A stretch of DNA of 64,000 bases from an uncultured bacterium (GTDB taxonomy: Bacteria > CSSED10-310): the NCBI GenBank assembly GCA_964512995.1, contig CAZELM010000002.1, forward strand, positions 18,637-82,636, given 5' to 3'. Positions 1,021 to 60,300 of the stretch are shown piece after piece. How positions within the stretch are numbered: position 1 is the first letter of the stretch; the number at the start of each line of letters is the position of its first letter. The notes beneath the pieces are model-generated. The model saw nothing but the letters and a program-made list of their open reading frames with translations. It was not told the DNA's origin and did no database searches. The position numbers and the translations under genes were made by a program.

Positions 1021-4000
1021 TTATCTTCTCGTCACTGATACGATCAGGAAGAGCGAGATCGCTGCCAGCATCAGGAAAATGCCCGATGGCGATGATGCCG
1101 GGATATATTCCATGATGGGAGTCGGTGTCGGACCCGTCTCATAACAGTAATCATAAATCCGTACATTATCCAGAAATACCATCGGCTCAAACCGATCATC
1201 CGGTTCAGGATAATGGACCGTTACGGGGAAGAAGGAGAAGAACCGTATGGATACGACCTGATCTCCAGCAAGTTGTTCCAATGGAAGACTCACATGGAAA
1301 TAATCATCCTGCTCGTCAACGACCGTATAGATATCATAGACCAGAGCACTGCCGTGAGCTTCCACCAGGAACATATCCTGATCCGTGATCCGGTCGCCTT
1401 TCTTCTGGGGACCGACGAAGTTCTTCAGCCGGACGTAGAAATCCAGAACGGCACTGCGGCGGATAGGTTCCGCGAAATTTACGGTCATCATGAGTTGCGC
1501 TTCATTGATTCCGTAACCGGTATCTTCCATACACCCTGCAAAGAATGCACAACTCCCGCCACTGAATGAATAGTTGACATCCTCCAGCACTCGGAGCCCC
1601 CATGTCGGACCGGATGTATCCTCCCAATGACTCAGCGATCCACCCTCAAATCCATCGTAGAAGACCACGCCAGGAATACAGGTCGGTGTGGGAGTGGGAG
1701 ATGGTGTCGGAGTCGGTGTATCCACACACTCCCCAATATGAATCCCCGGATCGGGTATCGGCTGCTGAACGGGAGTCCCCTGGTAATCAACATACCGGAT
1801 ATTGGAGTCTGAGCATTCGATCAGAGTATCCGATGAAAGCGGAACATCCGGAGAAACATGTACCTGGAAATTCACGTCAATGCTCTCCCCCACTCGTAAT
1901 CGGTCGAAATGCCAGATATATCGCCGCGGATCATCTGCAGAGGCAGTGGGAACGACGGTTGGAGCGACATTCCAGGAACCGGGAACAATATCCGTATACA
2001 CATTACTGCCATCCGGACACTGATGTGAAGCGCCACCAAACACTTCCTCGACATAGATATCTTTCCCCGCGAGATTGTTGATTACATCCGCCGCAATTTC
2101 CTGATACACATCCGCCAGATCATCCTCAGTCGGAGACCAGTAGTAGTTGCCGTGTTTGGCGGCTTCGGGAGTCGGCACAGAACCCCAATATTCCGGGTTG
2201 AATGGATCGGCAATCTCCCGCAACAGATCTTCGTTTATCAAAGTTCCCAGACCGATCGTATGGATCGTGGTGGCATACACCGATGCATAGTCACCCCAGG
2301 GTTGACTCAGCGAGATATGCCGAGCCATTTCACGGGCATGATCGATCGCATCATTGTCCCAGCCAGGAACATCTGCTGGTCCTGGAGTATAGAACCGGTT
2401 TGGACTCCGGTCTGAAAGCACGACCATGAATCGGTCGCCACGATGAGCAGGGGCAGGCGTCGGTGGAACCGGTGATCCTTCGGGTGTTGGCGGAGCGGGA
2501 TGGATGGGCATTGCACCGATGACATTTTTCGCATAATGCATTCCCGGTCCCAGTGCTCGAGCTCCACCCAAGGGTTCCTGAGACAGATGATCATGCCACC
2601 AGAATTGTTTATGCTGCGGGTCATCGGGATCATCCAGCACCCGCTGAACCGGTTCCGGCATCTCGTCCGGGAACACCCGCGGTACAGGATTGTATCCCGG
2701 CACTCCATTCGGAGACTGGGAATTGCCATAGAATACCAACCCACCGTAATCCTGAGAGCCGTAGATCGGAGGATTTTCCACCAGATAATCATAGAACTTC
2801 CAGGTTCCCCACAAAACATGAACATAGGGCCGATATGCGGTATCCAGATAGGGATCTTCTCCGATTGGCCCGTATGGCGGTTCTTCAAATTCATTGTATC
2901 CGGATTCAAATTGAAGCAATGTGTCGCTTTTAGCTACCACACACACCACATCCACCGGCTGGCGGATATACCGGATCGATCCGTCACTCGTGAGCGTCAA
3001 CCGAACCTGCAGGTTGTCATCCGGACAAATCGTACCACTGCTCAGATTTTCTTTAATGATGCGAATCCGCGGTGGTTCGATTGTGATGGGTGTGGGAGTC
3101 CCTTCAGGGGTATCGGTCGGGACTGGCGTATTTGTCGGCGTATTGCTGGGGGTCGGGGTTTGTGTCGGTGTGAGTGTTGGAGAAGGCGTTGGTGTACGCG
3201 TCGGCGAGTTGGTCGGAGTATTCGTGGGAGTCGGAGTATCAGTTGGTGTCTGGGTGGGCGTACTGGTCGGAGTGTTGGTTGGAGTCTGAGTTGGGGTATT
3301 CGTCGGGGTTCTGGTTGGTGCATTGGTGGGGGTTTCTGTCGGCGTATTTGTTGGCGTATTCGTCGGCGTATGGGTCGGTGTATTGGTTGCCGTCGGCGTT
3401 GCAGTGGGCGTATTCGTTGAAGTCGGCGTCATTGTCGACGTGTTCGTCGGTGTTGGGGTTTGGGTTGGCGTGTTCGTCGGTGTCGGGGTCCATGTCGGCG
3501 TATGGGTGAATGTCGGGGTTAATGTCGGAGTCTGCGTCGGCGTATTCGTCTCCGTCGGAGTCTGTGTTGGTGTGTTTGTAGGCGTTGGGGTCCATGTCGG
3601 TGTATTGGTGAATGTCGGGGTCCATGTCGGTGTCTGCGTCGGCGTGTTGGTCTCCGTTGGTGTCTGGGTTGGTGTGTTCGTCGGAGTGGGTGTTGATGTA
3701 GGCGTATTGGTCGGCGTTGGGGTACTGGTGGGGGTTTGGGTTGGCGTATTAGTCGGCGTCGGCGTCCATGTCGGCGTATTGGACGGCGTTGGCGTTTGCG
3801 TCGGGGTGTTGGTTGGCGTCCCGGTTGGAGCTCCGGTTGGCGTATTGGTCGGGGTGTTGGATGGTGTGGGGGTCTGGGTCGGAGTATCCGTGGGGGTACT
3901 CGTCGGTGTGTTTGTCGGTGTATTGGTTGGAGTAGGTGTCTGGGTTGGGGTGTCTGTTGGAGTGTCCGTGGGGGTATTGGTGGGCGTCGGTGTCGGTGTA

Positions 4001-5271
4001 TCGGTCGGAGTCTGGGTTGGAGTTGGCGTTGCAGTGGGTGGTTCGGGAGTGGGTGTATAGGTCGGTGGGATCGGCGTGGCTGTCGGTGTCCAGGTCGGCG
4101 GGATCGGTGTCGGTGTCAATGTCGGCGTATCAGTTGGAGTTGGTGTATCGATGGGAGTATTGGTGGGCGTGGGTGTAGATGTGGGAGTATTGGTGAAGGT
4201 TGGGGTATGAGTTGGTGTATGCGTTGGAGTTGGCGTTGATGTGGGAGTATTGGTTTCGGTCGGAGTGGAAGTGGGTGTGTTGGAAGGTGTGGGGGTAATC
4301 GTTGGTGTGTTGCTGGGTGTGCCAGTGGGAGCACCTGTTGGAGTTGAGGTGGGAGTATTTGATGGTGTCGGTGTTAAAGTCGGCGTGTTGGTATTCGTCG
4401 GAGTGAAAGTGGGAGAATTCGTGGGAGTCGGTGTTCGAGTGGGTGTATTGGTGGGTGTGGGAGTATTCGTTGGAGTATTCGTTGGCGTCGGCGTGAATGT
4501 CGGTGTGTTGGTGTTCGTTGGCGTCCGGGTGGGGGTATTGGTCGGAGTTCGCGTCGGGGTTCGTGTCGGGGTTTGCGTGGGCGTGTTGGTCGGTGTATTG
4601 GTCGGTCCAGCCGGCGTTGGTGTATCGTCGATCCACCATCCCGCCCGGATGATCGCATCCCGGGTCAAACCCATGTTCTCGCCCCAGTTATAGTTTGGAA
4701 TACACGTGAACGAATCAATATCCTCAATCAGGTATTTATGAAAAGTTAAACCGGCCAGATTGTCCGTACATGGTTTGACCAGATCATTCATATGAAAGGG
4801 AAATGAACCAAAATTAGTAACCCTGATTACCAACCGGTCACCAAAGCTCAATGAAATCGGATACCCAATACCCCAGTCCCGCAAATCCAACGCATAGAAT
4901 CCACTGGAATTATAGACAATAACGGGATTCGGGGAAGGATTGGATGGAGAACTCAGGATTGGCTTTCCCTGCGCATCCAGCGGTGGATTCTTGTAATACC
5001 TGACCACATACTCATAATCCATCGGATTGCCAAACAACATGACACCAATGTGAGTGATCGTAACGGGTGCTCCAGCGGTATACGTCACAATCACAGAGTC
5101 TCCTGTTCCACAGGATAAATATTCGGAATTGATATTATTCAGATAAAAAAATGGCTGAGCATCAGACCATCCATCGTACTGGAAGTACCAGTAATACCCG
5201 GCTCGGGTGCTGACTGGTAAAAAAAACAAAAAACACAATACCATAACACCGAATAAAGCTTTGAACCGCAT
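1021..5271 (-). CDS. Giant (1416 aa) secreted surface protein. It has an N-terminal signal peptide, a roughly 510-aa Thr/Pro-rich linker, a C-terminal globular region and a C-terminal sorting-signal-like tail.
   Basis: Uninterrupted 4.25-kb ORF. The N-terminus [28 protein letters not shown] is a classic signal peptide. The C-terminus [26 protein letters not shown] has the motif / TM helix / basic-cluster architecture of a PEP-CTERM or PGF-CTERM sorting signal. Confidence 0.8.
3095..4623 (-). repeat. Coding tandem repeat of about 1.5 kb encoding (T-P-T-x-T-P)n with a hexapeptide period; low-complexity and GT-rich on the plus strand.
   Basis: The protein runs from [19 protein letters not shown] to [20 protein letters not shown]. 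The plus-strand DNA is built from degenerate ggtgt/ggcgt/gtcgg units. Four long antisense ORFs on the plus strand (VGV repeats) are artefacts of the periodicity. Confidence 0.85.
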
Positions 5272-5471
5272 GGTAAGCTCCTATTCCTGGAAATAAACAA
5301 ACAATGTTGCCGATGGGTGCTGACCGGTATGTTCCTCCCTGCCTCTCACCAGCTCCCTATAATAGTATTTAATCTCTAAGCATGAATAAATGTCAAGTAA
5401 TCGGGAGCATGAATGGTCGAATTGTTAATAACTGTAGAGTATATCACACAATCACACATAACAGTGATCGG

Positions 5472-6980
5472 ATGGTGTTGACACAAACCAATAGACTCGG
5501 TAGATTCCACAGGATTTCGTTGAACGGGAGGTTGCCATTGAAGGTTACTGATAAAATTTTCCAGGATGGGCTGACATTTGATGACGTGACGCTGATACCG
5601 GCCGAGTCCGATGTATTACACACCCATGTCGATACTTCAACGATTCTGACACATGAATTGACATTGAACATCCCGATCATCAGTGCGCCGCTCAACACGG
5701 TGACAGAATCCCGAATGGCGATCGCCATCGCCCGGATCGGCGGAATGGGTATCATCCATCACGGGATGTCTCCACAGGATCAGGCCGATGAAGTTGACAA
5801 AGTCAAAAGATCGGAAAGCGGAATGATCCGGGACCCCGTTACCCTGAAACCAGATCAATCCATCCGGGCTGCCATCGAGCTGATGAATCAGTTTCAGATT
5901 TCAGGGATACCCATAACGGAAAATGGTATTCTGATCGGAATCATCACCAATCGGGATCTGCGCTTTGAACCGGATCTCAACCGCCCGATCCGCGACCTGA
6001 TGACCAGTCAGAACCTGATCACGGTCCGGGAAGGAACCAGTCTGGAATCCGCCAAAAAAATCCTCCAGACACATCGCATTGAAAAACTACCGGTTGTCGA
6101 TGATCAGAACCGGCTGAAAGGTCTGATCACAATCAAAGATATCCGCAAAAAAGAGACATTTCCGCACTCAACCAAAGATCCGCTGGGACGGCTTCGCGTT
6201 GGCGCATCGGTCAGCGCTGGCTCCGATCTGATCGATCGTGTCAATGCCCTGGTTTCGGTCAAGACCGATCTCATCTGTATCGATGCCCCACACGCTCATT
6301 ATAAAGGCGTATTGAAAGCGGTGGAGTGGGTGAAAAACCACTATCCCGACCAGATCGTCATGGCCGGAAATGTCGTTACCCGGGAAGGCGCTGACGCGCT
6401 TATTCAGGCTGGAGCGGACATCATCAAAGTGGGCTTTGGATTTACCAGCACCACCACATCCTTTCTGACTGGAGTTGCTGTGCCTCAGATCACCGCCATT
6501 CTGAATGTCTATGAAATCGCCGGTAAACATAACAAAACGATCATCTCCCACAGCCCCATCCGATCTCCGGGTGATCTCTGCAAAGCATGTGCAGCCGGCG
6601 CTCATGCCGTCATGATCGGTTCAATGCTGGCAGGAACCGATGAATCCCCCGGAGATATCACGATGTATCAGGGACGTTCATTCAAAGTGTTTCGCAAATC
6701 CGATCCGATTCATTCCATCCGATACGATTCTGTATATCCGGATATTCCGTTCGAACCGGACGTGAAATCGATGGGAATGGATGAGGCAGACAAACGGGTC
6801 CCCTATATCGGATCCTGTGATGGCATCATTCGGCAATTTACCAGCGGACTCAAAATGAGTATGAGCTACTGCGGGTGTAAACATTTAAAGGAATTCCGGG
6901 AAAAAACCCGGTTTATCCGGATAACCGATTGTCACCGGGATCACGCCAGAATCACCGCACCGGGAGCCATCTCCGGATAG
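5472..6980 (+). CDS. IMP dehydrogenase-fold protein (TIM barrel plus CBS pair) lacking the canonical catalytic Cys loop; likely a divergent or non-catalytic IMPDH paralog.
   Basis: Motifs FDDVTLIPAESDV, GIIHHGMS, VPQITAI and AGAHAVMIGSMLAGTDESPG resemble GuaB. The loop VGFGFTSTTTSF replaces VGIGPGSICTTR, and SHSPIRSPGD replaces ADGGIRYSGD. The track ORF begins at 5382; I prefer the ATG at 5472, which is nearer the conserved N-terminus. Confidence 0.7.
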   Translation: MVLTQTNRLGRFHRISLNGRLPLKVTDKIFQDGLTFDDVTLIPAESDVLHTHVDTSTILTHELTLNIPIISAPLNTVTESRMAIAIARIGGMGIIHHGMSPQDQADEVDKVKRSESGMIRDPVTLKPDQSIRAAIELMNQFQISGIPITENGILIGIITNRDLRFEPDLNRPIRDLMTSQNLITVREGTSLESAKKILQTHRIEKLPVVDDQNRLKGLITIKDIRKKETFPHSTKDPLGRLRVGASVSAGSDLIDRVNALVSVKTDLICIDAPHAHYKGVLKAVEWVKNHYPDQIVMAGNVVTREGADALIQAGADIIKVGFGFTSTTTSFLTGVAVPQITAILNVYEIAGKHNKTIISHSPIRSPGDLCKACAAGAHAVMIGSMLAGTDESPGDITMYQGRSFKVFRKSDPIHSIRYDSVYPDIPFEPDVKSMGMDEADKRVPYIGSCDGIIRQFTSGLKMSMSYCGCKHLKEFREKTRFIRITDCHRDHARITAPGAISG

Positions 6981-7117: not shown

Positions 7118-7978
7118 ATGATCATTCCCTTCACGAAACTGCACGGACTGGAAAATGACTATCTGTTTATCGATCTTTTCACACATCCATCCCTTCCTGA
7201 AGACCGCATACCCGGTATTGCCCGTCGGATGAGCCATCGCCGGAGAGGCATCGGAGCCGATGGCATTGTGCTCTGGGGTCCTTCCCGCGAAGCGGATGCG
7301 ATGATGCGGATCTTCAACTCGGACGGTTCGGAAGCCGAAACCTGCGGAAATGCTCTGCGATGCGTCGCAAAGCTGCTGTGGGAAAACGGTCATGCCACCC
7401 GCTCCCGGATCGTTATCCAGACCCGTGCCGGATGTGTCCATGCAACTGTCGTAATGCAGGATGGCCGCGTTCATGCCATCGATATCGACATCGGAAAACC
7501 CCGCTGGAGCCGCTCCGACCTTCCGATGACCGGTCACGGCGAAGCCCGTCGGATCGAACTTACGATCCAGGACACCCATTTCGATGCCACCTGCCTTTCC
7601 GTGGGAAATCCCCATTGTGTCCTCTTCGTGGAGCATCCATCCAAAGATCTGATCCTCCAAATGGGGCCACTCATCGAACATCACGAATGGTTCCCACAGG
7701 GCATCAATGTCGGATTTTGTCACGTGCTCAATCCCCATCAGATCGAGTTGACCGTCTGGGAACGCGGAGCCGGACTGACTGCTGCGTGTGGTACGGGAGC
7801 GGCAGCCGCATTCGCAGCTTCCCGGTACCGGAATCGGGTGGAACGCTCTACGGAAATCCAGATGCCCGGCGGCAGTCTGATGCTCCAGGAAACTCCAAAT
7901 GGACATCTCCATATTATTGGTCCTGCCACACGGGTGTTTGATGGGTATTGGGAGGAGGATATGACTCTTGACGCATGA
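7118..7978 (+). CDS. dapF: Diaminopimelate epimerase.
   Basis: N-terminus FTKLHGLENDYLFID. Both catalytic Cys motifs are present (ETCGNALRCV and ACGTGAAAAFA). The 286-aa length is typical of DapF. Confidence 0.9.
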   Translation: MIIPFTKLHGLENDYLFIDLFTHPSLPEDRIPGIARRMSHRRRGIGADGIVLWGPSREADAMMRIFNSDGSEAETCGNALRCVAKLLWENGHATRSRIVIQTRAGCVHATVVMQDGRVHAIDIDIGKPRWSRSDLPMTGHGEARRIELTIQDTHFDATCLSVGNPHCVLFVEHPSKDLILQMGPLIEHHEWFPQGINVGFCHVLNPHQIELTVWERGAGLTAACGTGAAAAFAASRYRNRVERSTEIQMPGGSLMLQETPNGHLHIIGPATRVFDGYWEEDMTLDA

Positions 7979-17010: not shown

Positions 17011-17658
17011 TCAGTTTTTCTTGGTTTTGGGAGTAGCGCTCAGGATAGCACTGAAAATCCATTTCGATGCATAGAGCATCCAGATGAAAGCAGGAACGAT
17101 CATCGAACCAGCCTGTTCCATGAACCCATGCATGAATCTCAGTAATTTAATTTTATAATACCAGACCTGCACATTGGGAATGGTCGGATTGATGATGAAT
17201 GTCTGATTTGCGAAATAATACGATTGAAGTCCTAATTGAATATGAATGAGATGACTGATACAGAGAAAAACACTGCCAGCGAAAAAAAACACAACCAATC
17301 GTTTCCAACTGATAAATGGAGAGGCGAATAAAAATGCCAGGAATGGAATGATATTGAAATGGACGGTATTCAGAAAGATGTCGATGCTGACCGGTTTTGG
17401 GTTTTTGATTGGAGCGGGTCCCCCGACATACGGTTCAAACAATACTGAGAAAGAGCCTCGATCCTCGGTATACCTTGAATCCATGACTTCCAAATTCCTG
17501 CCGACCAGATAGAGCGTTGACTTTCTTAGAAACGCATTATATGGCTCCAGGATAAATCCCCATAAAAAAAATGCCAGGATGCTAAAAAAAATGAACTTAA
17601 CAAAAAAAACCCACCAACCCAGACCAGACGGGCGCCAAAATTTTTCCCAGTTATTCAA
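17011..17658 (-). CDS. Polytopic membrane protein immediately downstream of the exosortase-like gene; function unknown (possible sortase-associated).
   Basis: 215 aa, highly hydrophobic, with several predicted TM segments. It is same-strand and 66 nt downstream of 17725..18345. Confidence 0.45.
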   Translation of the reverse strand: MNNWEKFWRPSGLGWWVFFVKFIFFSILAFFLWGFILEPYNAFLRKSTLYLVGRNLEVMDSRYTEDRGSFSVLFEPYVGGPAPIKNPKPVSIDIFLNTVHFNIIPFLAFLFASPFISWKRLVVFFFAGSVFLCISHLIHIQLGLQSYYFANQTFIINPTIPNVQVWYYKIKLLRFMHGFMEQAGSMIVPAFIWMLYASKWIFSAILSATPKTKKN

Positions 17659-17724: not shown

Positions 17725-18345
17725 TCACCCAAATGAAGGCTGTATTTTGTCTGGTGATTCTCCGCTGGGATCATCCGGGCTTTTTGGATTCTCCTCGCGA
17801 ATCATTTTTTCTTTCCAGAACACCCAAAAACCGATTACGAATAAAATGAAAATACCCTGCCAAAGAAACTCGTGATAAAAATCGAAATGTTTACGCCATC
17901 GCATGCCGATAATGCCTAATGCAGCCATGCGGATGGTATTGATGGTATAGAGACCAAACCAGCCGAATAAAAGACCGTATACCTTTTCCAGAACTTTTGC
18001 CGGATAAGCCAGAACCGCTGCCGCATAGATCATCATGCCAAAAACACCGGCACAGTGATAGATAATCGTAAAACGAAATCCGCCGGGTAACAGAACAACC
18101 GCATCATTCGCCATTGCCTCGATTCCAATCATTTTCAAAACAATAATAACGGATTTGGCCATTAACATAGGCAATTTTACCGAGATATATTGCTCCGAGA
18201 CACTCCAATGCAGAAAAAAGTAAAACAAGACACAGAAATAGCCGAATAACAAATAAAACTTGAATAAGACTATGTTCTGTCTGAATAAATCGCCAATTCG
18301 ACGTAACGTCAAAATATTCCTCCTTCGATTGCCGGGATTTTCCAT
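17725..18345 (-). CDS. Exosortase/archaeosortase-family transpeptidase-like membrane protein (short form).
   Basis: A Cys lies in a TM segment (IIYHCAGVFG) and is followed 41 residues later by INTIRMAAL. This is the spacing between the catalytic Cys and the conserved Arg in ArtA, and it resembles the CSG...ANxxRI pattern of exosortases. Confidence 0.55.
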   Translation of the reverse strand: MENPGNRRRNILTLRRIGDLFRQNIVLFKFYLLFGYFCVLFYFFLHWSVSEQYISVKLPMLMAKSVIIVLKMIGIEAMANDAVVLLPGGFRFTIIYHCAGVFGMMIYAAAVLAYPAKVLEKVYGLLFGWFGLYTINTIRMAALGIIGMRWRKHFDFYHEFLWQGIFILFVIGFWVFWKEKMIREENPKSPDDPSGESPDKIQPSFG

Positions 18346-24002: not shown

Positions 24003-25391
24003 ATGAAGGTTATTCTCGCCCGTCCCTGGAATCATACATCGATGCTGATCCCCAATCACGGATTGGGGTATCTCGCGGGAGCGTTGAAACGGGACGGGCA
24101 TGATCCTATGGTTATCGACTGCATCCGGGACACGCTCTCGCCACAGCAATTCCTTGAAACCATCCGGAATCACCATCCGGATGTGATTGGTTTTCAAGTT
24201 TATACGTTTGATCTGCCGATCTTACAGGAATATATCGATCGGTTACAGCATGAAAAGATTACGATTATTGCCGGAGGACCTCATCCATCCGCAGATCCCC
24301 ACTCATTTGCCCATCAGTTTCCCGAAATTGACTTTTTTTTTCGTGGAGAAGCCGATCTCGGACTTCCTCGGTTGATTCATTTATTACACAACAATACAAT
24401 TGATGAGTCTGCCCTGCGGAGTATACCCGGTCTGGTCTGGCGCTCCGGACAGTCCATTCAACTCAACCCATGCGCCTACCCAGACGATCTGGACACACTG
24501 GGCTTCCCCGACTGGGATCAGATATCACCATTGTCATACCCGGTTGCACCCCAGGGCACATTCACCAAACGGCTCCCATACGCACCCATCATAGTCACCC
24601 GGGGGTGTCCATACCCATGTTCATTCTGCGCCGGCAAACTTATGAGCGGCAGAAAGATACGATCACGAACAGCGGACCATGTCATTTCTGAACTGCGGTT
24701 TCTGGTCGATCGCTACGGAATCCGTGAATTTCATATTCAGGACGACAATTTCACATTCCATCGGGAGTTTGTGCTGGAGTTTTGCCGGAAACTGCAGGAA
24801 AGCCGTCTGGATCTGGCCTGGGCCTGTCCCAATGGCATCCGGCTCGATTCTTTGGATCCAGAGGTCTTACATGCGATGGAGTCTGCCGGGTGTTACTCGG
24901 TAGCCGTCGGCATCGAATCCGGGTCACAACGGATACTCGATCTGATGCAAAAACGTGCATCACTCGCTGATCTCTGTGCCAAGGTTCATCTGATCCGGAA
25001 GACGACGGCCTGGTATCTCACGGGATTTTTTATCCTGGGCTATCCCGGTGAAACGGAAGAGGAGATCAAATCTACCATCCGTTTATCCAAAAAACTTCCA
25101 CTGGATAAGGCCAATTTTGGCATCCTGATGCCTTTGCCCGGAACAGTGGCTGCCATCGAGGCGGAGAAATGGGGATGGACTCCCGGAGAAAATCAGACGC
25201 GAATGAGTGAATATCGAAGTCAATTCATATCACAGGGAATCTCTCCCGGGAAATTCCGGTGGCTTTTTCGGTGGGCGTTTATCAGTTTTTATGCCAGACC
25301 CCGGATCATTTACCGATTCATCTCCCAGATCAAATCCTGGGACCAGATCAAAATTCTCTGGAACCGGTTGAAAGATGTGATCCTCCCATGA
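24003..25391 (+). CDS. B12-binding-domain radical SAM protein (class B rSAM).
   Basis: The N-terminus is cobalamin-binding-like (VILARP...VIGFQVYTFDLP). The CxxxCxxC motif is RGCPYPCSFCAG. Confidence 0.85.
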   Translation: MKVILARPWNHTSMLIPNHGLGYLAGALKRDGHDPMVIDCIRDTLSPQQFLETIRNHHPDVIGFQVYTFDLPILQEYIDRLQHEKITIIAGGPHPSADPHSFAHQFPEIDFFFRGEADLGLPRLIHLLHNNTIDESALRSIPGLVWRSGQSIQLNPCAYPDDLDTLGFPDWDQISPLSYPVAPQGTFTKRLPYAPIIVTRGCPYPCSFCAGKLMSGRKIRSRTADHVISELRFLVDRYGIREFHIQDDNFTFHREFVLEFCRKLQESRLDLAWACPNGIRLDSLDPEVLHAMESAGCYSVAVGIESGSQRILDLMQKRASLADLCAKVHLIRKTTAWYLTGFFILGYPGETEEEIKSTIRLSKKLPLDKANFGILMPLPGTVAAIEAEKWGWTPGENQTRMSEYRSQFISQGISPGKFRWLFRWAFISFYARPRIIYRFISQIKSWDQIKILWNRLKDVILP

Positions 25392-26434
25392 AGCTTCTTA
25401 AAATGATCCGTCAATGGCCTTTCTCATATTTCCTTCACACACCTTACACGTGTAACATAAAGATCACACAACGATGCAACCTGAAATGTCACTTCTGCGG
25501 ATTGTGGTGCAGCGCTGCCCGTCGGGAATTGGCACTGCGGGATTACTTCCGAATGGCCGACCTACTTCGACAGTCTGGCCTGGCTCGGGTGGTGATCACA
25601 GGTGGAGAGCCGTTTCTGCGGAGTGATTTACCGGAAATCGTGAATGGATTTGCACGCCGATCCTTTTCCACAACGCTGCTCACCAATGGCACCCTTGCGA
25701 CTCGAGAATCTCTGATGAAGCTGTATGATCTGGGTCTGAACGATATTGGCATCTCCCTGGATACGCTGGATCCTCAGAAACAAGCACAGATTTGTGGAAA
25801 TGACGATGTCTGGCATCGAGCGGTCCGGACCATCCGCGAGAGTGTTGACATTTTTTCACGGGGTATTGTTGAAGTTCTGATTACGGTTTCTGCGGATAAT
25901 CTTCATGAGATACCGGAGCTCGTTTCCTTTATCGAGAACGATCTGGGAGCCTGGGCGGTTGTCAATCCGATCAACATACCCGCGGGTGAACACGCCTTTT
26001 TAAGTGCGCCGAAACACCACTCACTTCCATTGCCTGCTGAGCAGGTGGATCATATTTATAATATGCTTATCACAATGAAGCAACAAAGACACCGGCTCTT
26101 AGTTTCGGAAAAATTTCTGGAGGATTCACGGTCTTATCTGAAAACCGGGGATTATCGATGGAAATGTGATGCCGGCCAGCGTTATTTCACTGTTTTTTCC
26201 GATGGTGCGCTGGCTCCCTGCAGCGATACTCCAGCAATCGCCAATATCATGGACATGACTCCCGGTGATTTTCGCCAGCACTCATTCATCACCAAAACAC
26301 AGGACATCAGAGCTTCATGCGGCGGATGCATTTTCTCCTGCTGGCGGGAAGCCAGCTATCTCTTCACTGAACCAACCGTCTGGAAAGAACGGATTCTGAC
26401 ATCTCTCCATCTCGTAGCATCGAAAAGGAAGTAA
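25388..26434 (+). CDS. Radical SAM protein with a C-terminal SPASM/twitch-like Cys cluster.
   Basis: CNLKCHFCGLW is the CxxxCxxC motif, and the C-terminus has CSDTP...CGGCIFSCW. I prefer the start at the ATG at 25388, which overlaps the upstream stop (ATGA); the track ORF begins at 25259. Confidence 0.75.
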   Translation: MKLLKMIRQWPFSYFLHTPYTCNIKITQRCNLKCHFCGLWCSAARRELALRDYFRMADLLRQSGLARVVITGGEPFLRSDLPEIVNGFARRSFSTTLLTNGTLATRESLMKLYDLGLNDIGISLDTLDPQKQAQICGNDDVWHRAVRTIRESVDIFSRGIVEVLITVSADNLHEIPELVSFIENDLGAWAVVNPINIPAGEHAFLSAPKHHSLPLPAEQVDHIYNMLITMKQQRHRLLVSEKFLEDSRSYLKTGDYRWKCDAGQRYFTVFSDGALAPCSDTPAIANIMDMTPGDFRQHSFITKTQDIRASCGGCIFSCWREASYLFTEPTVWKERILTSLHLVASKRK

Positions 26435-26438
26435 GCTC

Positions 26439-27965
26439 ATGGATCGATTGGATCAGTATCGTGTGCTGCTCATGCGACCACCTTTTACCCGATTGAAGGG
26501 AGTTGGACAAGCACCTTATTTTCCGTTGGGTATCGGATATATCGCCGCCGTGTTAAACCAGTTGCCAGGTGTCACAGCAGAACTGTATTACTCCGAAAAT
26601 CCCCTGCCCGGTGAACCGACGTTTATTGTTGATAAAAAAGGCGTCTTTCACTCCAGATCAACCGCTCAATCCCAGTATTTCCAGGCATTGGAAATGGATT
26701 CTCACCCGGTATGGACGGAGATCCGGAATGTGCTCAGACAATTCAGACCGGATATTCTGGGTTTGAGTGTGCTGACTCCCGAAGCAGGTTCAGCGTTCAA
26801 AGTAACTCAGATTGCCAAGGAGTTATTTCCTGCGTGTCATGTTGTCTGGGGTGGTGTACATCCCACCTATTCGGTGAAAGAGACACTGGAACTCCCCGGT
26901 GTCGATTATGTTGTGGTGGGTGAAGGGGAATACTCGATGCGGGAGCTGGTTCTGGCGCTGCAGTCAGGCGGCTATCGAGGTTCCATTCCCGGTGTCATCA
27001 GCCGGAGGGAATCTGCCGAGGGATATCAGCAGCGGGAGTTGATTCCAGATCTTGATCGATTGCCTTTTCCCGATCGGAAACATGTTATCTTCCCGGATCG
27101 GTTCTCTCCTGTTGCAATGGGCAGTCTGATGCATAGCAGGGGTTGTCCATGGCAATGCGGATTCTGCTCCTCCCGGCACTTCTGGAATGAACGAGTTCGA
27201 TTCCGATCTCCAGAACAGATTACCGCTGAAATCGCGCAACTCATCCGGGACTACCGCATCAAAACATTCACATTCTGGGATGATGCGTTCACAATAGACC
27301 GTGCTTTGACGCAAACATTATGTGAATCGATCATTGCGATGAAAACACGAATCGCCTGGCGAACAGCCACTCGCATGGATTTACTGGATGATCCGATGCT
27401 GCGTCTGATGAAACGAGCTGGGTGTGTTCAATTGGAGTTGGGAATAGAGAGTGGCAGTTCCCGTATGTTACAACTTATCAAAAAAGATATTGAATTGAGT
27501 CAGGTGCGGGAAATCATTGAGCGTGTCAGTGCACATGGGATGGCATGTGGTGTATTTTTTATGGCCGGATTTCCCGACGAGACGATGGCTGACCTTGAAG
27601 CGACGTATCAGTTTATGCAGACGATCCAGCCGGCCGAGATTGTCTTGAACATTTTCGATCCGATGCCAGGTTCGGAGCAATTTCATCGTGCCATCAATTT
27701 GGGTCTGCTGCCACTAGAAATTGATTACCTTCGATTTCCACTTTGGCCGGATGCTCATTATATTAAAGGAATGAAACCGGTGGAGTTCAATGTGATGGTG
27801 GACAAAATTTCACGGTATGTTTTTCAATATAATTCCAGCCGCATCGCTTTTATGAGGCGAGCCAGACCGGAAGCATTACAGCTTTTGAGATCCGATCCCA
27901 AGGTTCTGCTTCAAAAAGCATTGCGCGTCCTCAAACACCGATTCCGGAATGGTGGATCACACTAA
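26439..27965 (+). CDS. B12-binding-domain radical SAM protein (class B rSAM); second copy.
   Basis: The N-terminal B12-binding-like domain is followed by RGCPWQCGFCSS. The overall architecture is similar to 24003..25391. Confidence 0.85.
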   Translation: MDRLDQYRVLLMRPPFTRLKGVGQAPYFPLGIGYIAAVLNQLPGVTAELYYSENPLPGEPTFIVDKKGVFHSRSTAQSQYFQALEMDSHPVWTEIRNVLRQFRPDILGLSVLTPEAGSAFKVTQIAKELFPACHVVWGGVHPTYSVKETLELPGVDYVVVGEGEYSMRELVLALQSGGYRGSIPGVISRRESAEGYQQRELIPDLDRLPFPDRKHVIFPDRFSPVAMGSLMHSRGCPWQCGFCSSRHFWNERVRFRSPEQITAEIAQLIRDYRIKTFTFWDDAFTIDRALTQTLCESIIAMKTRIAWRTATRMDLLDDPMLRLMKRAGCVQLELGIESGSSRMLQLIKKDIELSQVREIIERVSAHGMACGVFFMAGFPDETMADLEATYQFMQTIQPAEIVLNIFDPMPGSEQFHRAINLGLLPLEIDYLRFPLWPDAHYIKGMKPVEFNVMVDKISRYVFQYNSSRIAFMRRARPEALQLLRSDPKVLLQKALRVLKHRFRNGGSH

Positions 27966-44436: not shown

Positions 44437-44642
44437 AAAAAATATATTCTCACGTTTTCAGGAACCAGATGACTGGCTTCCAACTGTGGATTTCCCTTGG
44501 AAAGATCCTATAAGATCAACATACTGAAATTGTTTCGGTTCCAATATATTCTGCTCTACAGTATCATTCACTATCCGATAATCCAGTTTACAAAACCATT
44601 CCAGAGATAAAATTTCAACCTGTAACAGATAAAAATTGGGGA

Positions 44643-45008
44643 GGAGTTTAACTGTAAGCCGGGTTCTGTACCTGATGAACAGGTGGTGATCATTCATCTA
44701 GGATACCCGTTACCGAGTATCTCCAGCAACCTACCCTGAAGCTTCGAACGGGCCGCCCTCAAACGCTTCTCTATTTGGTCTTGCTCCAAATGGGGTTTAC
44801 CGAGCCGCTCCGGTCACCCGAACCGCTGGTGAGCTTTTACCTCACCGTTTCACCCTTGCCTGAGCCGCAAATTGGCCATCGGCGGTTTGCTTTCTGTTGC
44901 ACTTTCCGTGGGGTCACCCCCCCTGGGAATTACCCAGCATTTTGCCCTATGGAGCCCGGACTTTCCTCCCGTAGCAGACGCTACCGGCAATCACCCGATA
45001 AACTCCAC
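44643..45008 (-). ncRNA. rnpB: RNase P RNA (bacterial type A).
   Basis: The reverse complement contains GGGAGGAAAGUCCGGGCUCCAUAGGGCAAAAUG and the 3' motif ACAGAACCCGGCUUA. P1 pairs GGAGUUUA (5') with UAAACUCC (3'). It also contains AAACCGCCGAUGGCC and GGUAAACCCCA. The overlapping + ORF 44775..45062 is the familiar spurious RNase P translation. Confidence 0.9.
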
Positions 45009-57394: not shown

Positions 57395-60300
57395 CTACCA
57401 ATTCCCGCCCGTGTCAGAAAAATCAATCGACCTTTTCTTGAGGGACAATGGTTTCGCCGGATCCGTTATCGCTCCGATTTTAACCGCATAACTGCTCTTC
57501 CGCTCGATATCCGCATCGGTCAGTACCTGAACATCCAGCAGACCATTACTTGCATATCCCGTTCTCAGATAATTCAGCTCTCCAAGGCACAAACTCCAGC
57601 CTTCCAGCCAACTCATCAGTTCTGTTTTCTGTTGCGCTGTTCCTGTGAAATGGATCAGCAGATCAATATCGCTCCCCGCCTGCGCAGTTCCATTTTTCGT
57701 GCTACCGAAGACATATAAAGCCTTGACACCGAATCGATCCGGATCGAGTTCTGAAGCGATTTTTTCCGCCATTCGCATCCGCCATTGCCAATGATCATCG
57801 GACACCTGTTCTGAACTTTCCGACATCAGGGAAGTCGATGGAACAGGAGAAGCAATGGTTTTAACGGAACTGGGCAGCGATAAAAAGCCGACGGCTTCCT
57901 CCAGATCCGCATTCATCAGAATTCTCAGAATTCTTCCGTCATAGGATTTCGGGACATCAATGACCCGGACAGTATCCGCCAGATGCTGATAACTCGGTAA
58001 AATATCAGGAAGAATATTATAGGAGTTCAGTAAGAACCGTTCATTGAATATCACTTCCGGATCATCCGGGTAAAGCGGCAAGTATCGAATATTGGATTCG
58101 ACCAGATCTTGAAAAAAGTGAGTCCCGAAAGACAGCTCAGGAGTATAATTTCCTTTTTTCTTGGCAATTTCGATCAACATCGCCGTTTTATTGAAATCAG
58201 AATAAGTGACCTTGACACCCAGTTTGATATCTCCCCGGCTACCCCATCGACCTGGACCCATCAGGATGAACTGCCGTTTGGGGAGGAGTTTATTGAGTTG
58301 GGCAACGATCCAACCGATAGCATTGAGATCCTCCAGACTGCTGACCTGTGAGTATCTATCCGGATCGACATAAACGATATGCGTGATATCAGGGACTCTG
58401 CCATTGGAAATATACCGTTTGGCGGTGAAGATAATTCTATTTTTAGGAATATCCTGGGGTATTGGGGATGCGCTGTTATCCGATGAATAGCTCTGAGGTC
58501 TGCATTGCAGCAGATAAAAATCCTTGCCATCGGACGCGAATTCGATATCCACTGGGCAATTCAGATTATCTTTAAGAACTTGTAGCACCGAATGAAGTTG
58601 TGAAACGAATTTTGTATCTTTGATCAAACCTTCGAATGTGACAACGAGCGTATCCGTATCATAATCGATGAGCGCTCCAGGCCGCTTGATCTGCCCATCT
58701 TTATATATGGATACCAACCGTTTCAAACCCGGGAATTCCGCTCCGCTCTCACGCAGCAGATCGGTAATCTCCACTGTTTCAAAGCTATTGGTTTCCATAT
58801 TGATCACATCGATTTTATGAGGAGAATAACGAAGCATTTCATCGGGAGATATATTGACCTTCAGATTGGGCTGGCCGGGAGCGATCAGGATCGGGTAATC
58901 ATCACTGAGCCGATCAACCGCACGAGTTCCCAATCCGGGCACAAGCCGGATCAATCCATCTTCTCTTTTGATGCGTGGAGACCATCTGAACTCATTATTA
59001 CTGAACGCGACACCGGCAAAACTGGGCAGGAAGTAGCGTCCCATCTTTGTACCGACGACCTCCTGAAGCAAAATGCCCATCTCTTCGTTGAAATCCAGTA
59101 ATCCACGCTCGGTGCGGTATTGAATCGGATCCGGGCTGAAAGTTGATGCATAAACTTCAGCGATTGCATCCATCAATGCTTCCAGACGCCGTTTCTTGTT
59201 CCCCTGATTGGCAATAAAAAGACTCTTATATTTTCCGGAAAAAGCGGTACCTAGGCTATCCTCTAACAGACTGGAACTCCGGACAATCAACGGTCGATCA
59301 CCAAAATCATCCAGTGCTAAAGCCAGACCTTTTACAATCTCCGGCGGGAAATATGAATTCTTGAACATCTGGATGATCTGGGGATATTCCATCCGGATCT
59401 GATCGATTTCCTTATATTTCTGTTCCACAACATCTTCAAGGTTGTTGTAATGCAAAAAATTAACCAGACTGTCGGATGTGACAAACCAGGTTTTTGGGAT
59501 TTTCACATTGTCCAGGATATCTTTAACTTCTTCCGATTTTCGCAGAATTTTAGAAGCAAGAAATAATCCGGCACTTTTTCCACCGAGCCGGCCGCGGCCT
59601 CCTGTGGGATGAATAATATTCTGCATGAGATCATAAAAATCCGATACTTCAATGAACTGCTTCGCAATATTAATGAATTCCAGTCTCGCGAAGAAGAATC
59701 GACGAATCAGAGAAACCTTCAGACCCTTTTCAGCGGGTGGAGAAATCTCTGCTGCCAGGTTCCGATACCGTGTCAATGCATCCACGATCTCAGCCAGAGT
59801 GCTGCTGTTGTTTTCGATCGTTTTGAGCAAAAAGCTGGCTTTATCTTCCTGTATCCATTTATGAATGAGTTCGAGAATTTCCTTGTCTTCCAGATAATTC
59901 TCTGCCAGCTTGAAAATTTCATCACTCATGTGCAGGATACTGTCCATTGTTTTTCGCTGACTCGGGACATTGGACTCCTCATGCAAATCCAATTCAGATG
60001 CTTTCGCTTGCCCTCCTAGTTTTTTAAGGAGGATGGATGCTTCTTCGTTCCCGCTCCAACAAAGATGATTCATCATCTTGCGTGCAATTTGGATAAACAA
60101 ATTCTGGTCGGTTGTCCGGAGCAGATCAAGGATGACCGGCCAATCTCCGCTTGCTCTTTTTGATGCTTTTTGGGAGGAACTGGATTCGATATCCTGAATC
60201 ACTTCCCGATGTTTGATATAAAAAATCGTATTCCCCAGCCGCTGTCCGATGTTGGCCAGCAGTTTCTGTTCTTCTTCCAGGAACACATCGACGCTATCGA

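What the first reader, a model, noticed from the sequence alone, without database searches (positions are those of the whole stretch)
5472..6980. IMPDH-fold paralog with the catalytic Cys loop replaced (GSICTTR to TSTTTSF)
The protein keeps the IMPDH TIM barrel, the CBS pair and many flanking motifs (VPQITAI, AGAHAVMIGSMLAGTDESPG). The catalytic Cys and the following Arg in the active-site loop are replaced by Thr/Ser. The phosphate-binding GG in ADGGIRYSGD is SHSPIRSPGD, and the mobile flap is rewritten. This predicts loss of IMP dehydrogenase chemistry, so the protein may be a regulatory or binding pseudo-enzyme, or it may have a new activity.
Basis: partly seen in the sequence, partly recalled or inferred. 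Interest (0 to 1): 0.55.

Follow-up and report, generated by a model that had tools for sequence, protein, structure and literature searches.

The report
Catalytically dead guaB (IMPDH) ortholog
In this uncultured sediment-type bacterium, the housekeeping gene for the first step of guanine-nucleotide synthesis has lost nearly all its catalytic residues but keeps an intact fold and nucleotide-sensing domain, so it is most likely a "dead enzyme" kept for a non-catalytic job.

Summary
It has two CBS domains. The catalytic Cys is deleted from its loop. The ribose Asp and the GG of ADGG, the YRGMGS base/phosphate motif, the Arg-Tyr dyad, the PEG Glu and the C-terminal ESHPH segment are all replaced. 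Other reading frames hide no canonical motifs, so this is not a frameshift artefact.

It is not a paralog. Six related genomes (candidate phylum CSSED10-310 and unnamed relatives) carry a canonical guaB in the same slot, between a large secreted protein and dapF. The window gene is therefore the positional ortholog.

The changes are far from random. Of 165 near-invariant IMPDH columns, 40 are changed: 0 of 43 in the Bateman domain and 30 of 48 in the active-site segments (p about 1e-11). Whole-gene neutral decay is excluded.

Best reading (about 0.5): a pseudoenzyme kept for Bateman-domain nucleotide sensing or scaffolding. Rivals are a late-stage relic or a new chemistry.

It is a singleton; no relative shares the rewritten loops. 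I could not test whether a second guaB exists elsewhere in the genome.

The parts
5478..5506 (+). Promoter-like site (TTGACA, 17 nt, TAGATT) upstream of the gene.
   Evidence: It is a consensus match only; 1 was found against 2.8 expected in shuffles, so the evidence is weak.
5526..5531 (+). GGGAGG ribosome-binding site, 6 nt before the TTG start
5538..6980 (+). Coding sequence of the degenerate GuaB/IMPDH ortholog (480 aa plus stop)
   Evidence: P0001 is 100% identical, 480 aa.
5538..5813 (+). N-terminal part of the barrel (residues 1-92), including SAPLNTVTE (5682-5708) in place of SAAMDTVTE
   Evidence: 4 of 31 near-invariant columns are changed: P28H, M52L, D53N, N76G.
5814..6173 (+). Bateman module (two CBS domains, residues 93-212). 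The NRD and IKD Asp residues, K200, K204 and E182 are kept.
   Evidence: 0 of 43 near-invariant columns are changed. Pfam CBS x2. pLDDT about 86-93.
6282..6302 (+). DAPHAHY in place of DTAHGHS. The Asp that binds the NAD ribose is kept; its neighbours are changed.
   Evidence: PMC4594927 for D283.
6432..6464 (+). Remnant of the catalytic Cys loop, GFGFTSTTTSF (canonical G[IV]GPGSICTTR[IV]). The Cys column is deleted and the Arg is replaced by Ser.
   Evidence: Alternative frames are negative. pLDDT is below 50 at residues 302-304.
6546..6575 (+). SHSPIRSPGD in place of ADGGIRYSGD. The ribose-binding Asp becomes His, and GG becomes SP.
   Evidence: PMC4594927 for D374 and G376.
6579..6590 (+). 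Newly gained C-K-A-C (CxxC) motif
   Evidence: None of the 59 canonical sequences has Cys at either column. Significance unknown.
6591..6689 (+). Conserved GS phosphate loop and finger hairpin (AAGAHAVMIGSMLAGTDESPGDITMYQGRSFKV)
   Evidence: 0 of 11 near-invariant columns are changed in the tested block, residues 351-384.
6690..6809 (+). Rewritten YRGMGS motif and catalytic flap (FRKSDP...DIPFEP...GMDEADKRVPY). The Arg-Tyr dyad and the purine-binding Met-Gly and Glu are lost.
   Evidence: 17 of 21 near-invariant columns are changed. Identity to canonical is 0.23, against 0.77 among canonical sequences.
6924..6977 (+). Shortened, rewritten C-terminus (TDCHRDHARITAPGAISG) in place of AGxRESHPHDVxITKEAPNY
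   Evidence: 5 of 6 near-invariant columns are changed. Alignment.
7118..7978 (+). dapF (diaminopimelate epimerase), the conserved downstream neighbour. No terminator-like site was found between it and guaB on the + strand.
1021..5271 (-). Divergently transcribed 1416-aa secreted protein, the conserved upstream neighbour. Its C-terminal 684 aa are 43-46% identical to the 715-737-aa proteins next to guaB in relatives.

Best explanation
The gene is this lineage's own guaB, the positional ortholog of canonical IMP dehydrogenase in related CSSED10-310-type genomes. It can no longer make XMP. The nucleophilic Cys is deleted, and the ribose Asp, the GG of the ADGG loop, the Tyr/Met-Gly of YRGMGS, the Arg-Tyr water-activating dyad, the purine-binding Glu and the C-terminal ESHPH segment are all replaced. 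The TIM-barrel scaffold, the finger hairpin and above all the Bateman (CBS-pair) module have stayed under purifying selection.

The most likely working model is a pseudoenzyme. It would be a folded IMPDH-like oligomer that still binds adenine/guanine nucleotides, and possibly (p)ppGpp, in its Bateman domain. It would be kept for a catalysis-independent regulatory, sensing or scaffolding role, either on its own or as a partner of other proteins. GMP would then come from salvage or from an enzyme encoded elsewhere.

Shown: residue losses, orthology by synteny, region-specific constraint, a confidently predicted fold. Inferred: nucleotide binding, oligomerisation, the regulatory role and the source of GMP.
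For: 1. Active-site loss. Alignments with 9, 59 and 7 syntenic canonical IMPDHs. Of the XMP contacts listed for M. tuberculosis IMPDH (C341, T343, M424, G425, E458, G336, S339, G376, G397, S398, Y421, D374; PMC4594927), I map 5 as kept (G301, S304, T307, G361, S362) and 7 as lost. The Arg-Tyr dyad (PMC9375230) is I-P. TIGR01302 scores 466, below its cutoff of 481.5.

2. Orthology. The arrangement big secreted protein (-) | guaB (+) | dapF (+) is conserved in L003-L008, all with GPGSICTTR. L002 has the first two genes and then its contig ends. The NJ tree puts the window protein sister to that clade.

3. Region-specific constraint. Near-invariant columns changed: Bateman 0/43, residues 351-384 0/11, N-terminal barrel 4/31, against flap 17/21, C-terminus 5/6, Cys-loop-to-DGG 8/21. 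Fisher p=1e-11 and 2e-13.

4. Branch lengths. By dapF the window lineage is no more distant (0.48-0.51 identity) than other deep pairs in the clade whose guaB are 0.64-0.70 identical. Its guaB is 0.50-0.54. NJ terminal branches, window versus the comparably deep L006: Bateman 0.29 vs 0.14, scaffold 0.41 vs 0.22, active-site segments 1.25 vs 0.13.

5. Live-gene signs. Intact frame with only in-frame indels. Best codon-usage fit of the 43 window genes, and the rewritten segments fit as well as the conserved ones. Ribosome-binding site and promoter-like site present.

6. Fold. AlphaFold2 mean pLDDT 83.5; low only at 302-304, 389-418 and 469-480. Foldseek TM 0.80-0.86 to bacterial IMPDH structures.

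7. Precedent. Deleting the Bateman domain of E. coli IMPDH disturbs ATP/GTP pools (Pimkin and Markham, as summarised in PMC10912719). Bacterial Bateman domains bind ATP, GTP and (p)ppGpp (PMC9462843). A PDB entry models a B. subtilis IMPDH-CodY complex (9a6q). Cys-less IMPDH+CBS proteins persist as conserved families in Clostridia.
Against: - It is a singleton. No protein in 5.8 billion clusters or 1.84 billion representatives, and no locus in the genome or metagenome collections, shares the rewritten loops. Conservation of the new state cannot be tested, and no dN/dS is possible.
- The scaffold and Bateman branches are about 2-fold longer than in a comparable canonical lineage, so some general relaxation has occurred.
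- Absence of stop codons is only weak evidence: 8.5-24% of neutral simulations also stay open.
- Selection against misfolding of an expressed protein, or against polarity on the downstream dapF, could keep the frame open without any function.
- No expression, binding or partner data exist.
- One probable (p)ppGpp-contact position (R/K/H in relatives) is Gln120 here. The mapping is by motif spacing and is uncertain.
Confidence: 0.5

Rival explanations
1. Late-stage relic. guaB became dispensable (guanine salvage or a replacement enzyme) and the gene is on its way out. It has no function of its own, and the frame is open by chance, by selection against toxic misfolded or truncated products, or to avoid polarity on dapF.
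For: Singleton with no conserved relatives of the degenerate state. A roughly 2-fold longer branch even in the scaffold and Bateman regions. 8.5-24% of neutral simulations keep an open frame. No terminator-like site between guaB and dapF on the + strand, so co-transcription is possible.
Against: Uniform neutral decay cannot change 17/21 invariant flap positions and 0/43 invariant Bateman positions (p=1e-11). The Bateman positions kept include surface ligand-binding residues (the Asp of the NRD and IKD motifs, K200, K204, E182), which folding alone does not require. All indels are in frame. Codon usage is the best fit in the window, including in the rewritten segments. Neighbouring genes such as dapF are intact, with their catalytic Cys motifs.
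Confidence: 0.2
2. Neofunctionalised enzyme. The remodelled pocket (Ser/Thr-rich loop TSTTTS, His338, new C348-x-x-C351, C465-H466-x-x-H469) carries out a different reaction or binds a metal or redox cofactor, still under Bateman-domain control.
For: The rewritten segments keep 0.30-0.34 identity and several structural Gly/Pro/Thr residues rather than being randomised. New Cys and His residues sit at positions where none of the 59 canonical proteins has Cys. Conserved Cys-to-Ser IMPDH-like families in Clostridia show that this fold can be repurposed.
Against: Both a catalytic nucleophile and most of the nucleotide-phosphate and ribose binding residues are gone. No second sequence shows that any new residue is conserved. 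AlphaFold confidence is below 50 in exactly these loops. The Clostridial families keep the DGG and YRGM IMP-binding motifs, and this protein does not.
Confidence: 0.17
3. Assembly or sequencing artefact, or a chimeric consensus, in a metagenome-assembled contig.
For: The source is a metagenome assembly and only one organism carries the sequence.
Against: Forty targeted substitutions and several in-frame indels cannot arise from read errors. The other frames hide no canonical motifs. The same protein is recorded from two assemblies, an NCBI 176 kb contig and a Logan 52 kb contig. Flanking genes are normal and syntenic.
Confidence: 0.05
4. Still a working IMP dehydrogenase or GMP reductase with an unconventional active site.
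For: Overall 51-55% identity to canonical IMPDH. The TIGR01302 score is only 15 bits under its cutoff.
Against: Both enzymes need the loop Cys for a covalent intermediate, and here that column is deleted. The IMP ribose Asp, the GG, the Met-Gly, the Glu and the Arg-Tyr dyad are also lost (PMC9375230, PMC4594927). GMP reductase models score far below their cutoffs.
Confidence: 0.03

Closest known systems
Bacterial IMP dehydrogenase GuaB (EC 1.1.1.205; Pfam PF00478 + 2x PF00571; NCBIfam TIGR01302), e.g. S. pyogenes 1zfj and B. anthracis 3tsb
   Same: Same architecture (TIM barrel with an inserted Bateman module), 51-55% identity, same genomic slot as guaB of related genomes. The Bateman domain, GS phosphate loop and finger are conserved.
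   Different: The catalytic Cys is deleted. The ADGG, YRGMGS, Arg-Tyr, PEG-Glu and C-terminal ESHPH motifs are replaced. The score is below the equivalog cutoff.
GuaB3 of Actinobacteria (Rv3410c; NCBIfam TIGR01304, 'IMP dehydrogenase-related 2')
   Same: An IMPDH-family protein in which the active-site loop and most IMP/NAD-binding residues are not conserved and no IMPDH activity is known. It is nonetheless retained, and reported as required for growth in M. tuberculosis (PMC9790621).
   Different: GuaB3 lacks the CBS/Bateman insert, is an old paralog sitting next to an active guaB2, and forms a large conserved family. The window protein keeps the Bateman module, is the guaB ortholog itself, is a singleton, and scores only 72 bits against a cutoff of 342 on TIGR01304.
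GuaB1-type GMP reductase with CBS domain (NCBIfam NF052358/TIGR01303) and GuaC
   Same: [quoted passage not shown]
   Different: These keep the catalytic Cys loop. The window protein scores 249 vs 675 and 224 vs 563 on the two models, and 145 vs 397 on NF003470 (one of the four CBS-less GMP reductase models, all below cutoff).
Cys-to-Ser IMPDH+CBS groups in Clostridia found here ('SerA' P0271-P0277; 'SerB' P0283, P0301, P0311, P0351 and others). I found no description of them in the papers I searched.
   Same: Full-length IMPDH+CBS proteins without the catalytic Cys or the Arg-Tyr dyad. Some members share DAP in place of DTA, and R-x-PGD.
   Different: They arose inside Clostridial IMPDHs, independently of the window protein. 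They have many members with their own conserved motifs (GIGPSSVSTKR, MMGNLFAGCEESPG) and keep the DGG and YRGM IMP-binding motifs, which the window protein has lost.
Pseudoenzyme regulators derived from nucleotide-metabolism enzymes, such as the PRPS-related pseudoenzymes
   Same: The concept is the same: the catalytic residues of a core nucleotide-synthesis enzyme are lost, while the fold and regulatory surfaces are kept. PMC13252144 came up in the search for 'IMPDH' plus 'pseudoenzyme'; I did not read it in detail.
   Different: A different fold and family. Those are paralogs acting alongside active subunits, whereas no active partner is known here.

Membership tests
IMP dehydrogenase (GuaB, TIGR01302 equivalog) | TIM-barrel catalytic domain with an inserted Bateman (2x CBS) module | tested here: met
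   Pfam IMPDH 3.7e-107 and CBS x2. AF2 pLDDT 83.5. Foldseek TM 0.80-0.86 to IMPDH structures.
IMP dehydrogenase (GuaB, TIGR01302 equivalog) | Catalytic Cys in the G-S-I-C-T-T loop (covalent E-XMP* intermediate) | tested here: not met
   The Cys column is a gap and the loop reads GFGFTS-TTTSF. All 59 canonical sequences and all 7 related loci have Cys.
IMP dehydrogenase (GuaB, TIGR01302 equivalog) | Arg-Tyr dyad on the mobile flap that activates the hydrolytic water | tested here: not met
   DRYFQ becomes DIPFE. 17 of 21 invariant flap columns are changed.
IMP dehydrogenase (GuaB, TIGR01302 equivalog) | IMP-binding residues: ribose Asp; phosphate Ser/Gly/Gly-Ser/Tyr; base Met-Gly and Glu | tested here: not met
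   Asp becomes His, GG becomes SP, Tyr becomes Phe, Met-Gly becomes Ser-Asp, Glu becomes Asp. Only G301, S304, T307, G361 and S362 are kept. The mapping to the PMC4594927 list is by invariant motifs.
IMP dehydrogenase (GuaB, TIGR01302 equivalog) | Score at or above the curated equivalog cutoff | tested here: not met
   466 bits against a cutoff of 481.5.
IMP dehydrogenase (GuaB, TIGR01302 equivalog) | NAD-dependent oxidation of IMP to XMP | not testable with these tools
   Needs an enzyme assay or complementation of a guaB deletion.
guaB orthologous group of the CSSED10-310-type clade (membership by descent) | Same genomic slot and tree position as guaB of related genomes | tested here: met
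   The arrangement big protein | guaB | dapF is conserved in L003-L008, and the first two genes in the truncated L002. The window protein is sister to that clade in the NJ tree on residues 1-296.
GMP reductase (GuaC; GuaB1 type) | Catalytic Cys loop and a family HMM score above cutoff | tested here: not met
   No Cys in the loop. Scores: NF052358 249 vs 675, TIGR01303 224 vs 563, NF003470 145 vs 397.
GuaB3 family (TIGR01304) | IMPDH-related barrel without a CBS insert; family HMM score above cutoff | tested here: not met
   72 bits against a cutoff of 342. The window protein has two CBS domains.
Pseudoenzyme (dead-enzyme homolog retained by selection) | Clear homology to an active enzyme with loss of essential catalytic residues | tested here: met
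Pseudoenzyme (dead-enzyme homolog retained by selection) | Continued purifying selection on the non-catalytic parts | tested here: met
   0/43 Bateman columns changed against 30/48 active-site-segment columns, p=1e-11. The branch-length contrast is 0.29/0.41 against 1.25. The caveat is that this rests on a single sequence, with no dN/dS.
Pseudoenzyme (dead-enzyme homolog retained by selection) | Demonstrated lack of activity and a demonstrated non-catalytic function | not testable with these tools
   Needs biochemistry and genetics.

The most novel reading that the evidence does not exclude
A bacterium has turned its only, ancestral guaB into a natural separation-of-function allele: an IMPDH that senses nucleotides through an intact Bateman module and keeps its oligomer scaffold but cannot catalyse anything. 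It may also have gained a new Cys/His site (C348-x-x-C351, C465-H466-x-x-H469). This would be the first IMPDH pseudoenzyme that retains the regulatory domain. It would also be direct natural evidence that the long-suspected catalysis-independent role of the IMPDH Bateman domain is worth keeping on its own.
Probability: 0.4. Interest if true: 0.65.

Novelty: new variant of a known kind. Interest (0 to 1): 0.45.

Why it matters
IMPDH is a textbook essential enzyme and a drug target. Its Bateman domain has long been suspected of moonlighting roles: control of the purine pool in E. coli, nucleic-acid or protein binding. These are hard to separate from catalysis.

An ortholog that has discarded catalysis but kept the Bateman module under selection would be a ready-made natural test of that idea. 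It would also imply that this lineage gets guanine nucleotides another way, by salvage or by a non-orthologous enzyme.

There is a practical consequence too. The gene will be annotated as 'IMP dehydrogenase' by domain-based pipelines, so metabolic reconstructions of this MAG would wrongly infer de novo GMP synthesis. The same warning applies to the Cys-less Clostridial groups found in passing, some of which are already named IMP dehydrogenase in public records.

Tried and rejected
1. Frameshift or sequencing artefact. tblastn of a canonical ortholog and three-frame alignment of each rewritten segment found no hidden canonical motifs. Rejected.

2. Paralog. Rejected by synteny in L003-L008 and by tree position.

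3. Relatives that share the degenerate state. None was found in the 5.8-billion-cluster search, in pattern scans of genome contigs and metagenome contigs with the C-terminal half, or in a full HMMER search of 1.84 billion representatives with the rewritten half.

4. A second guaB. None in the window. The rest of the genome could not be reached. The MAG is not in the GTDB representative set. The listing of cluster members gave no accession. Look-ups of two right-end window proteins returned nothing. P0066, checked as a possible same-sample copy, came from other samples.

5. Stop-codon-free simulation. It was only weakly informative: 8.5-24% of neutral runs stay open. I do not rely on it.

6. 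Riboswitch or other RNA element upstream. Rfam found only RNase P at 44639-45006.

7. A metagenome scan anchored on the upstream protein gave one truncated locus (L011) without the guaB side.

8. Literature. No paper among those searched describes an IMPDH pseudoenzyme that retains a Bateman domain. The Pimkin papers and Hedstrom's review are not held, so Pimkin is cited through PMC10912719.

9. Common ancestry with the Cys-less Clostridial proteins that share 'DAP' and 'xPGD'. Rejected by the tree; the shared residues look convergent.
Full report
**What is in the sequence**

An open frame runs 5382-6980 on the + strand.
- Homologs begin at the position of TTG 5538: MKVTDKIFQDGLTFDDV aligns with MNINQKILYEGLTFDDV.
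- A GGGAGG ribosome-binding site lies at 5526-5531.
- A promoter-like TTGACA-17-TAGATT lies at 5478-5506, inside the supposed extension.
- The product on record in public data is the 480-aa protein P0001, 100% identical.

Pfam finds the IMPDH/GMP-reductase barrel (E=3.7e-107) and two CBS domains. The closest solved structures are bacterial IMP dehydrogenases: 1zfj at E=1e-130 and 3tsb at 1.9e-129. NCBIfam's IMP dehydrogenase equivalog scores 466 bits, just under its curated cutoff of 481.5. The GMP reductase, GuaB1 and GuaB3 models fall far below theirs.

**The active-site losses are real**

I aligned the protein with 9 and then 59 canonical IMPDHs.

| Canonical motif | Window protein | Note |
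|---|---|---|
| GPGSICTTR | GFTST-TTS | the Cys column is a one-residue deletion; Arg becomes Ser |
| ADGGIRYSGD | SHSPIRSPGD | ribose Asp becomes His; GG becomes SP |
| YRGMGS | FRKSDP | |
| DRYFQ | DIPFE | Arg-Tyr dyad lost |
| VPEGIEG | GMDEADK | |
| DTAHGHS | DAPHAHY | |
| SAAMDTVTE | SAPLNTVTE | |
| C-terminal ESHPHD...APNY | shortened and rewritten | |

Twelve XMP contacts are listed for M. tuberculosis IMPDH and described there as highly conserved (PMC4594927). By motif mapping, five survive (G301, S304, T307, G361, S362) and seven are lost. The mechanism needs the Cys thioimidate and the Arg-Tyr dyad (PMC9375230), so IMP dehydrogenase chemistry is not credible. GMP reductase uses the same Cys, so that chemistry is not credible either.

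This is not a frameshift artefact. tblastn of a canonical ortholog gives one colinear match in a single frame, and the other two frames of each rewritten segment score lower against the canonical peptides than the real frame does. The protein is recorded from an NCBI contig of 176 kb and from a Logan assembly of SRR12133403.

**It is the ortholog, not a paralog**

The best database hits after self are canonical IMPDHs at 55% identity or less, several of them named candidate division CSSED10-310.

The locus of one such protein (L003) has the same neighbours as the window gene: a large protein transcribed divergently upstream and dapF downstream. The upstream proteins are 43-46% identical over about 700 aa, and dapF is 50% identical.

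I used an alignment of the upstream protein as an anchor and recovered five more genomes (L004-L008; one is titled CSSED10-310). All five show big protein | guaB | dapF, and all carry an intact GPGSICTTR loop. L002 shows the first two genes before its contig ends.

An NJ tree on residues 1-296 places the window protein sister to this clade. The 64 kb window holds no second IMPDH homolog.

**The pattern of change excludes plain decay**

Of 165 alignment columns that are at least 95% conserved among the canonical sequences, the window protein changes 40.

| Region (residues) | Near-invariant columns changed |
|---|---|
| N-terminal barrel (1-92) | 4/31 |
| Bateman (93-212) | 0/43 |
| 213-296 | 2/20 |
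| Cys loop to DGG (297-350) | 8/21 |
| GS loop and finger (351-384) | 0/11 |
| Flap (385-424) | 17/21 |
| 425-462 | 2/10 |
| C-terminus (463-480) | 5/6 |

Two further near-invariant columns, the catalytic Cys and a C-terminal His, are deletions in the window protein. They are counted in the 40 but not in the table.

Bateman against the three active-site segments gives Fisher p=1e-11. Scaffold against those segments gives p=2e-13. Even the four N-terminal changes fall in or next to conserved motifs; two of them lie in the SAAMDTVTE motif.

By dapF, the window lineage is no more distant from its relatives (0.48-0.51 identity) than the deep lineages of the clade are from each other (0.41-0.57). 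Those lineages have guaB pairs at 0.64-0.70, but the window guaB is at 0.50-0.54.

Split by region, the window protein's identity to relatives compares with deep canonical pairs as follows:
- Bateman: 0.63-0.67 against 0.70-0.78.
- Scaffold: 0.50-0.59 against 0.57-0.65.
- Active-site segments: 0.30-0.34 against 0.68-0.79.

NJ terminal branches for the window gene against the comparably isolated L006 are 0.29 vs 0.14, 0.41 vs 0.22 and 1.25 vs 0.13. The protein as a whole is therefore somewhat relaxed, about 2-fold. The active-site segments have run about 10-fold faster, while the Bateman domain lost none of its invariant positions.

A gene drifting neutrally long enough to replace 80% of the invariant flap residues would have done the same to the Bateman domain.

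Supporting but weaker signs of a live gene:
- All indels are in frame.
- The gene has the best codon-usage fit of the 43 window genes, and the rewritten segments fit as well as the conserved ones.
- dapF next door is intact.

The absence of stop codons alone is weak evidence: 8.5-24% of neutral simulations also stay open.

**Fold**

AlphaFold2, run with the 60-sequence alignment, gives mean pLDDT 83.5 and pTM 0.79. The barrel and the Bateman domain are confident. Low confidence is confined to 302-304, 389-418 and 469-480, which are the rewritten loop, flap and tail. Foldseek matches bacterial IMPDH structures at TM 0.80-0.86.

**Most likely mechanism**

Shown: this is the lineage's guaB, it cannot perform IMPDH chemistry, and its fold and Bateman module have been kept by selection.

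Inferred: it works as a pseudoenzyme whose retained business end is the Bateman module.
- That module still carries the two canonical-site Asp residues (in the NRD and IKD motifs), together with K200, K204 and E182.
- By spacing, the last three match the K206, K210 and E188 (p)ppGpp/ATP contacts of the S. coelicolor enzyme (PMC9462843).
- One probable contact, which is R/K/H in relatives, is Gln120 here; that mapping is uncertain.
- The conserved finger hairpin suggests the octamer switch may also persist.

Precedents for catalysis-independent roles:
- Pool dysregulation in the E. coli Bateman-deletion strain (Pimkin and Markham, via PMC10912719). From memory, the 2009 paper states that the role is independent of catalysis; I could not open it.
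- A PDB model of a B. subtilis IMPDH-CodY complex (9a6q).

I put this reading at about 0.5.

Rivals:
- A relic whose frame is kept by selection against misfolding or polarity: 0.2.
- A new chemistry in the remodelled pocket, which has gained C348-K-A-C351, H338 and C465-H466-x-x-H469 where no canonical sequence has Cys: 0.17.
- An artefact: 0.05.
- Residual IMPDH activity: 0.03.

**Comparison with what is known**

By descent the gene is a guaB ortholog, but it fails four defining features of IMP dehydrogenase: the Cys, the Arg-Tyr dyad, the IMP contacts and the HMM cutoff. It should not be filed as one.

The nearest described degenerate relative is actinobacterial GuaB3, which also lacks the active-site loop and most IMP/NAD residues (PMC9790621). 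GuaB3, however, lacks the CBS insert, is an old paralog next to an active guaB2, and forms a large family. The window protein scores 72 against 342 on that model.

Searches of the paper library for an IMPDH pseudoenzyme found nothing matching.

**A wider pattern seen in passing**

I searched 1.84 billion representatives with the rewritten half. No protein shares the rewritten loops; the best hit is 47% identical. The search did turn up other full-length IMPDH+CBS proteins without the Cys (P0135, P0252).

Following P0135 revealed two conserved Clostridial groups in which Cys is replaced by Ser:
- GMGSVSNSTTR.
- GIGPSSVSTKR, together with LEVFHGHA, MMGNLFAGCEESPG and ISKGVEGR.

Several of these are named 'IMP dehydrogenase' in Defluviitaleaceae MAGs. 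They keep the DGG and YRGM motifs and nest inside Clostridial IMPDHs, so they arose independently of the window protein. Cys-less IMPDH-like proteins with a Bateman domain are therefore recurrent and can be stably maintained. That makes a retained role for the window protein more plausible.

**Limits**

The degenerate form is a singleton from one metagenome-assembled genome. No expression or biochemical data exist.

**Verdict**

Interest is moderate at 0.45 and would be higher if the Bateman-only function or a new site were demonstrated.

Noticed in passing
P0271-P0277, and P0283, P0301, P0302, P0311, P0312, P0320, P0326, P0327, P0332, P0337, P0346-P0349, P0351, P0357, P0359, P0371, P0381 (database proteins; loci L012-L015): Two conserved groups of full-length IMPDH+CBS proteins in Clostridia (several from Defluviitaleaceae MAGs, named 'IMP dehydrogenase') have Ser in place of the catalytic Cys and lack the Arg-Tyr dyad, but keep DGG and YRGM. 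Their Cys-loop motifs are GMGSVSNSTTR and GIGPSSVSTKR, the latter with LEVFHGHA, MMGNLFAGCEESPG and ISKGVEGR. They nest within Clostridial IMPDHs and look like undescribed neofunctionalised paralogs. The two genomic contexts I examined were uninformative.
   Followed up: partly
P0135 and P0252 (database proteins): Two further Cys-less IMPDH+CBS representatives. P0135 is a more degenerate member of the GMGSVSNS group: SAARESVTE, IDAPNGHH, flap and C-terminus lost. P0252 (GVGSVNTTA) sits on a very long separate branch. With the window protein they share DAP in place of DTA, and R-x-PGD, apparently by convergence.
   Followed up: partly
window 1021-5271 (-): A 1416-aa protein whose middle roughly 500 residues are an almost pure Pro-Thr repeat (TPTxTPT...). 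Together with an N-terminal domain, this region is absent from the 715-737-aa homologs next to guaB in relatives. The C-terminus ([28 protein letters not shown]) looks like a PEP-CTERM-type sorting signal. There were no Pfam or NCBIfam hits.
   Followed up: partly
window 17725-18345 (-), with 17011-17658 (-): A small exosortase/archaeosortase-family protein (TIGR04178 signature 46 bits against a cutoff of 23; nearest models XrtX, XrtH and archaeosortase B, all below their cutoffs). It sits next to an unannotated membrane protein and is a possible sorting enzyme for the PEP-CTERM-like protein at 1021-5271.
   Followed up: partly
window 6579-6590 and 6924-6977 (+): The degenerate GuaB has gained a C-K-A-C motif (no Cys in either column in 59 canonical IMPDHs) and a C-H-x-x-H at its rewritten C-terminus. 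In IMPDH oligomers (from memory) the C-terminus packs against the neighbouring subunit's active-site loop. A metal or redox site is possible but untested.
   Followed up: no
window 24003-27965 (+): Three radical-SAM genes in a row, two with B12-binding domains. They are followed by a lipid A-type acyltransferase and a GT2 glycosyltransferase. Distant relatives of the radical-SAM genes (28-30% identity) sit upstream of guaB in L002 and L003, so the gene order has been rearranged.
   Followed up: no
window 57395-62358 (-): Two adjacent genes carry the PPDK_N (PEP-utilising, ATP-grasp) domain. The larger (1074 aa) is fused to a C-terminal nucleotidyltransferase (Pol-beta-like) domain, an unusual architecture.
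   Followed up: no
window 44639-45006 (-): Bacterial RNase P RNA class A, 326 bits. It was the only Rfam family to reach its gathering score in the window.
   Followed up: yes
L001 2390-5216 (just left of the window): A LarC-like (Ni_insertion), LarE-like (NAD_synthase/Asn_synthase) and LarB-like (AIRC) gene trio, which fits synthesis of the nickel-pincer cofactor. RtcB and a methyltransferase lie beyond it.
   Followed up: no
window overall compared with L002 and L003: The window has 46.5% G+C, against 52.4% in the loci of the nearest relatives. The guaB remnant is at 50.9%.
   Followed up: no
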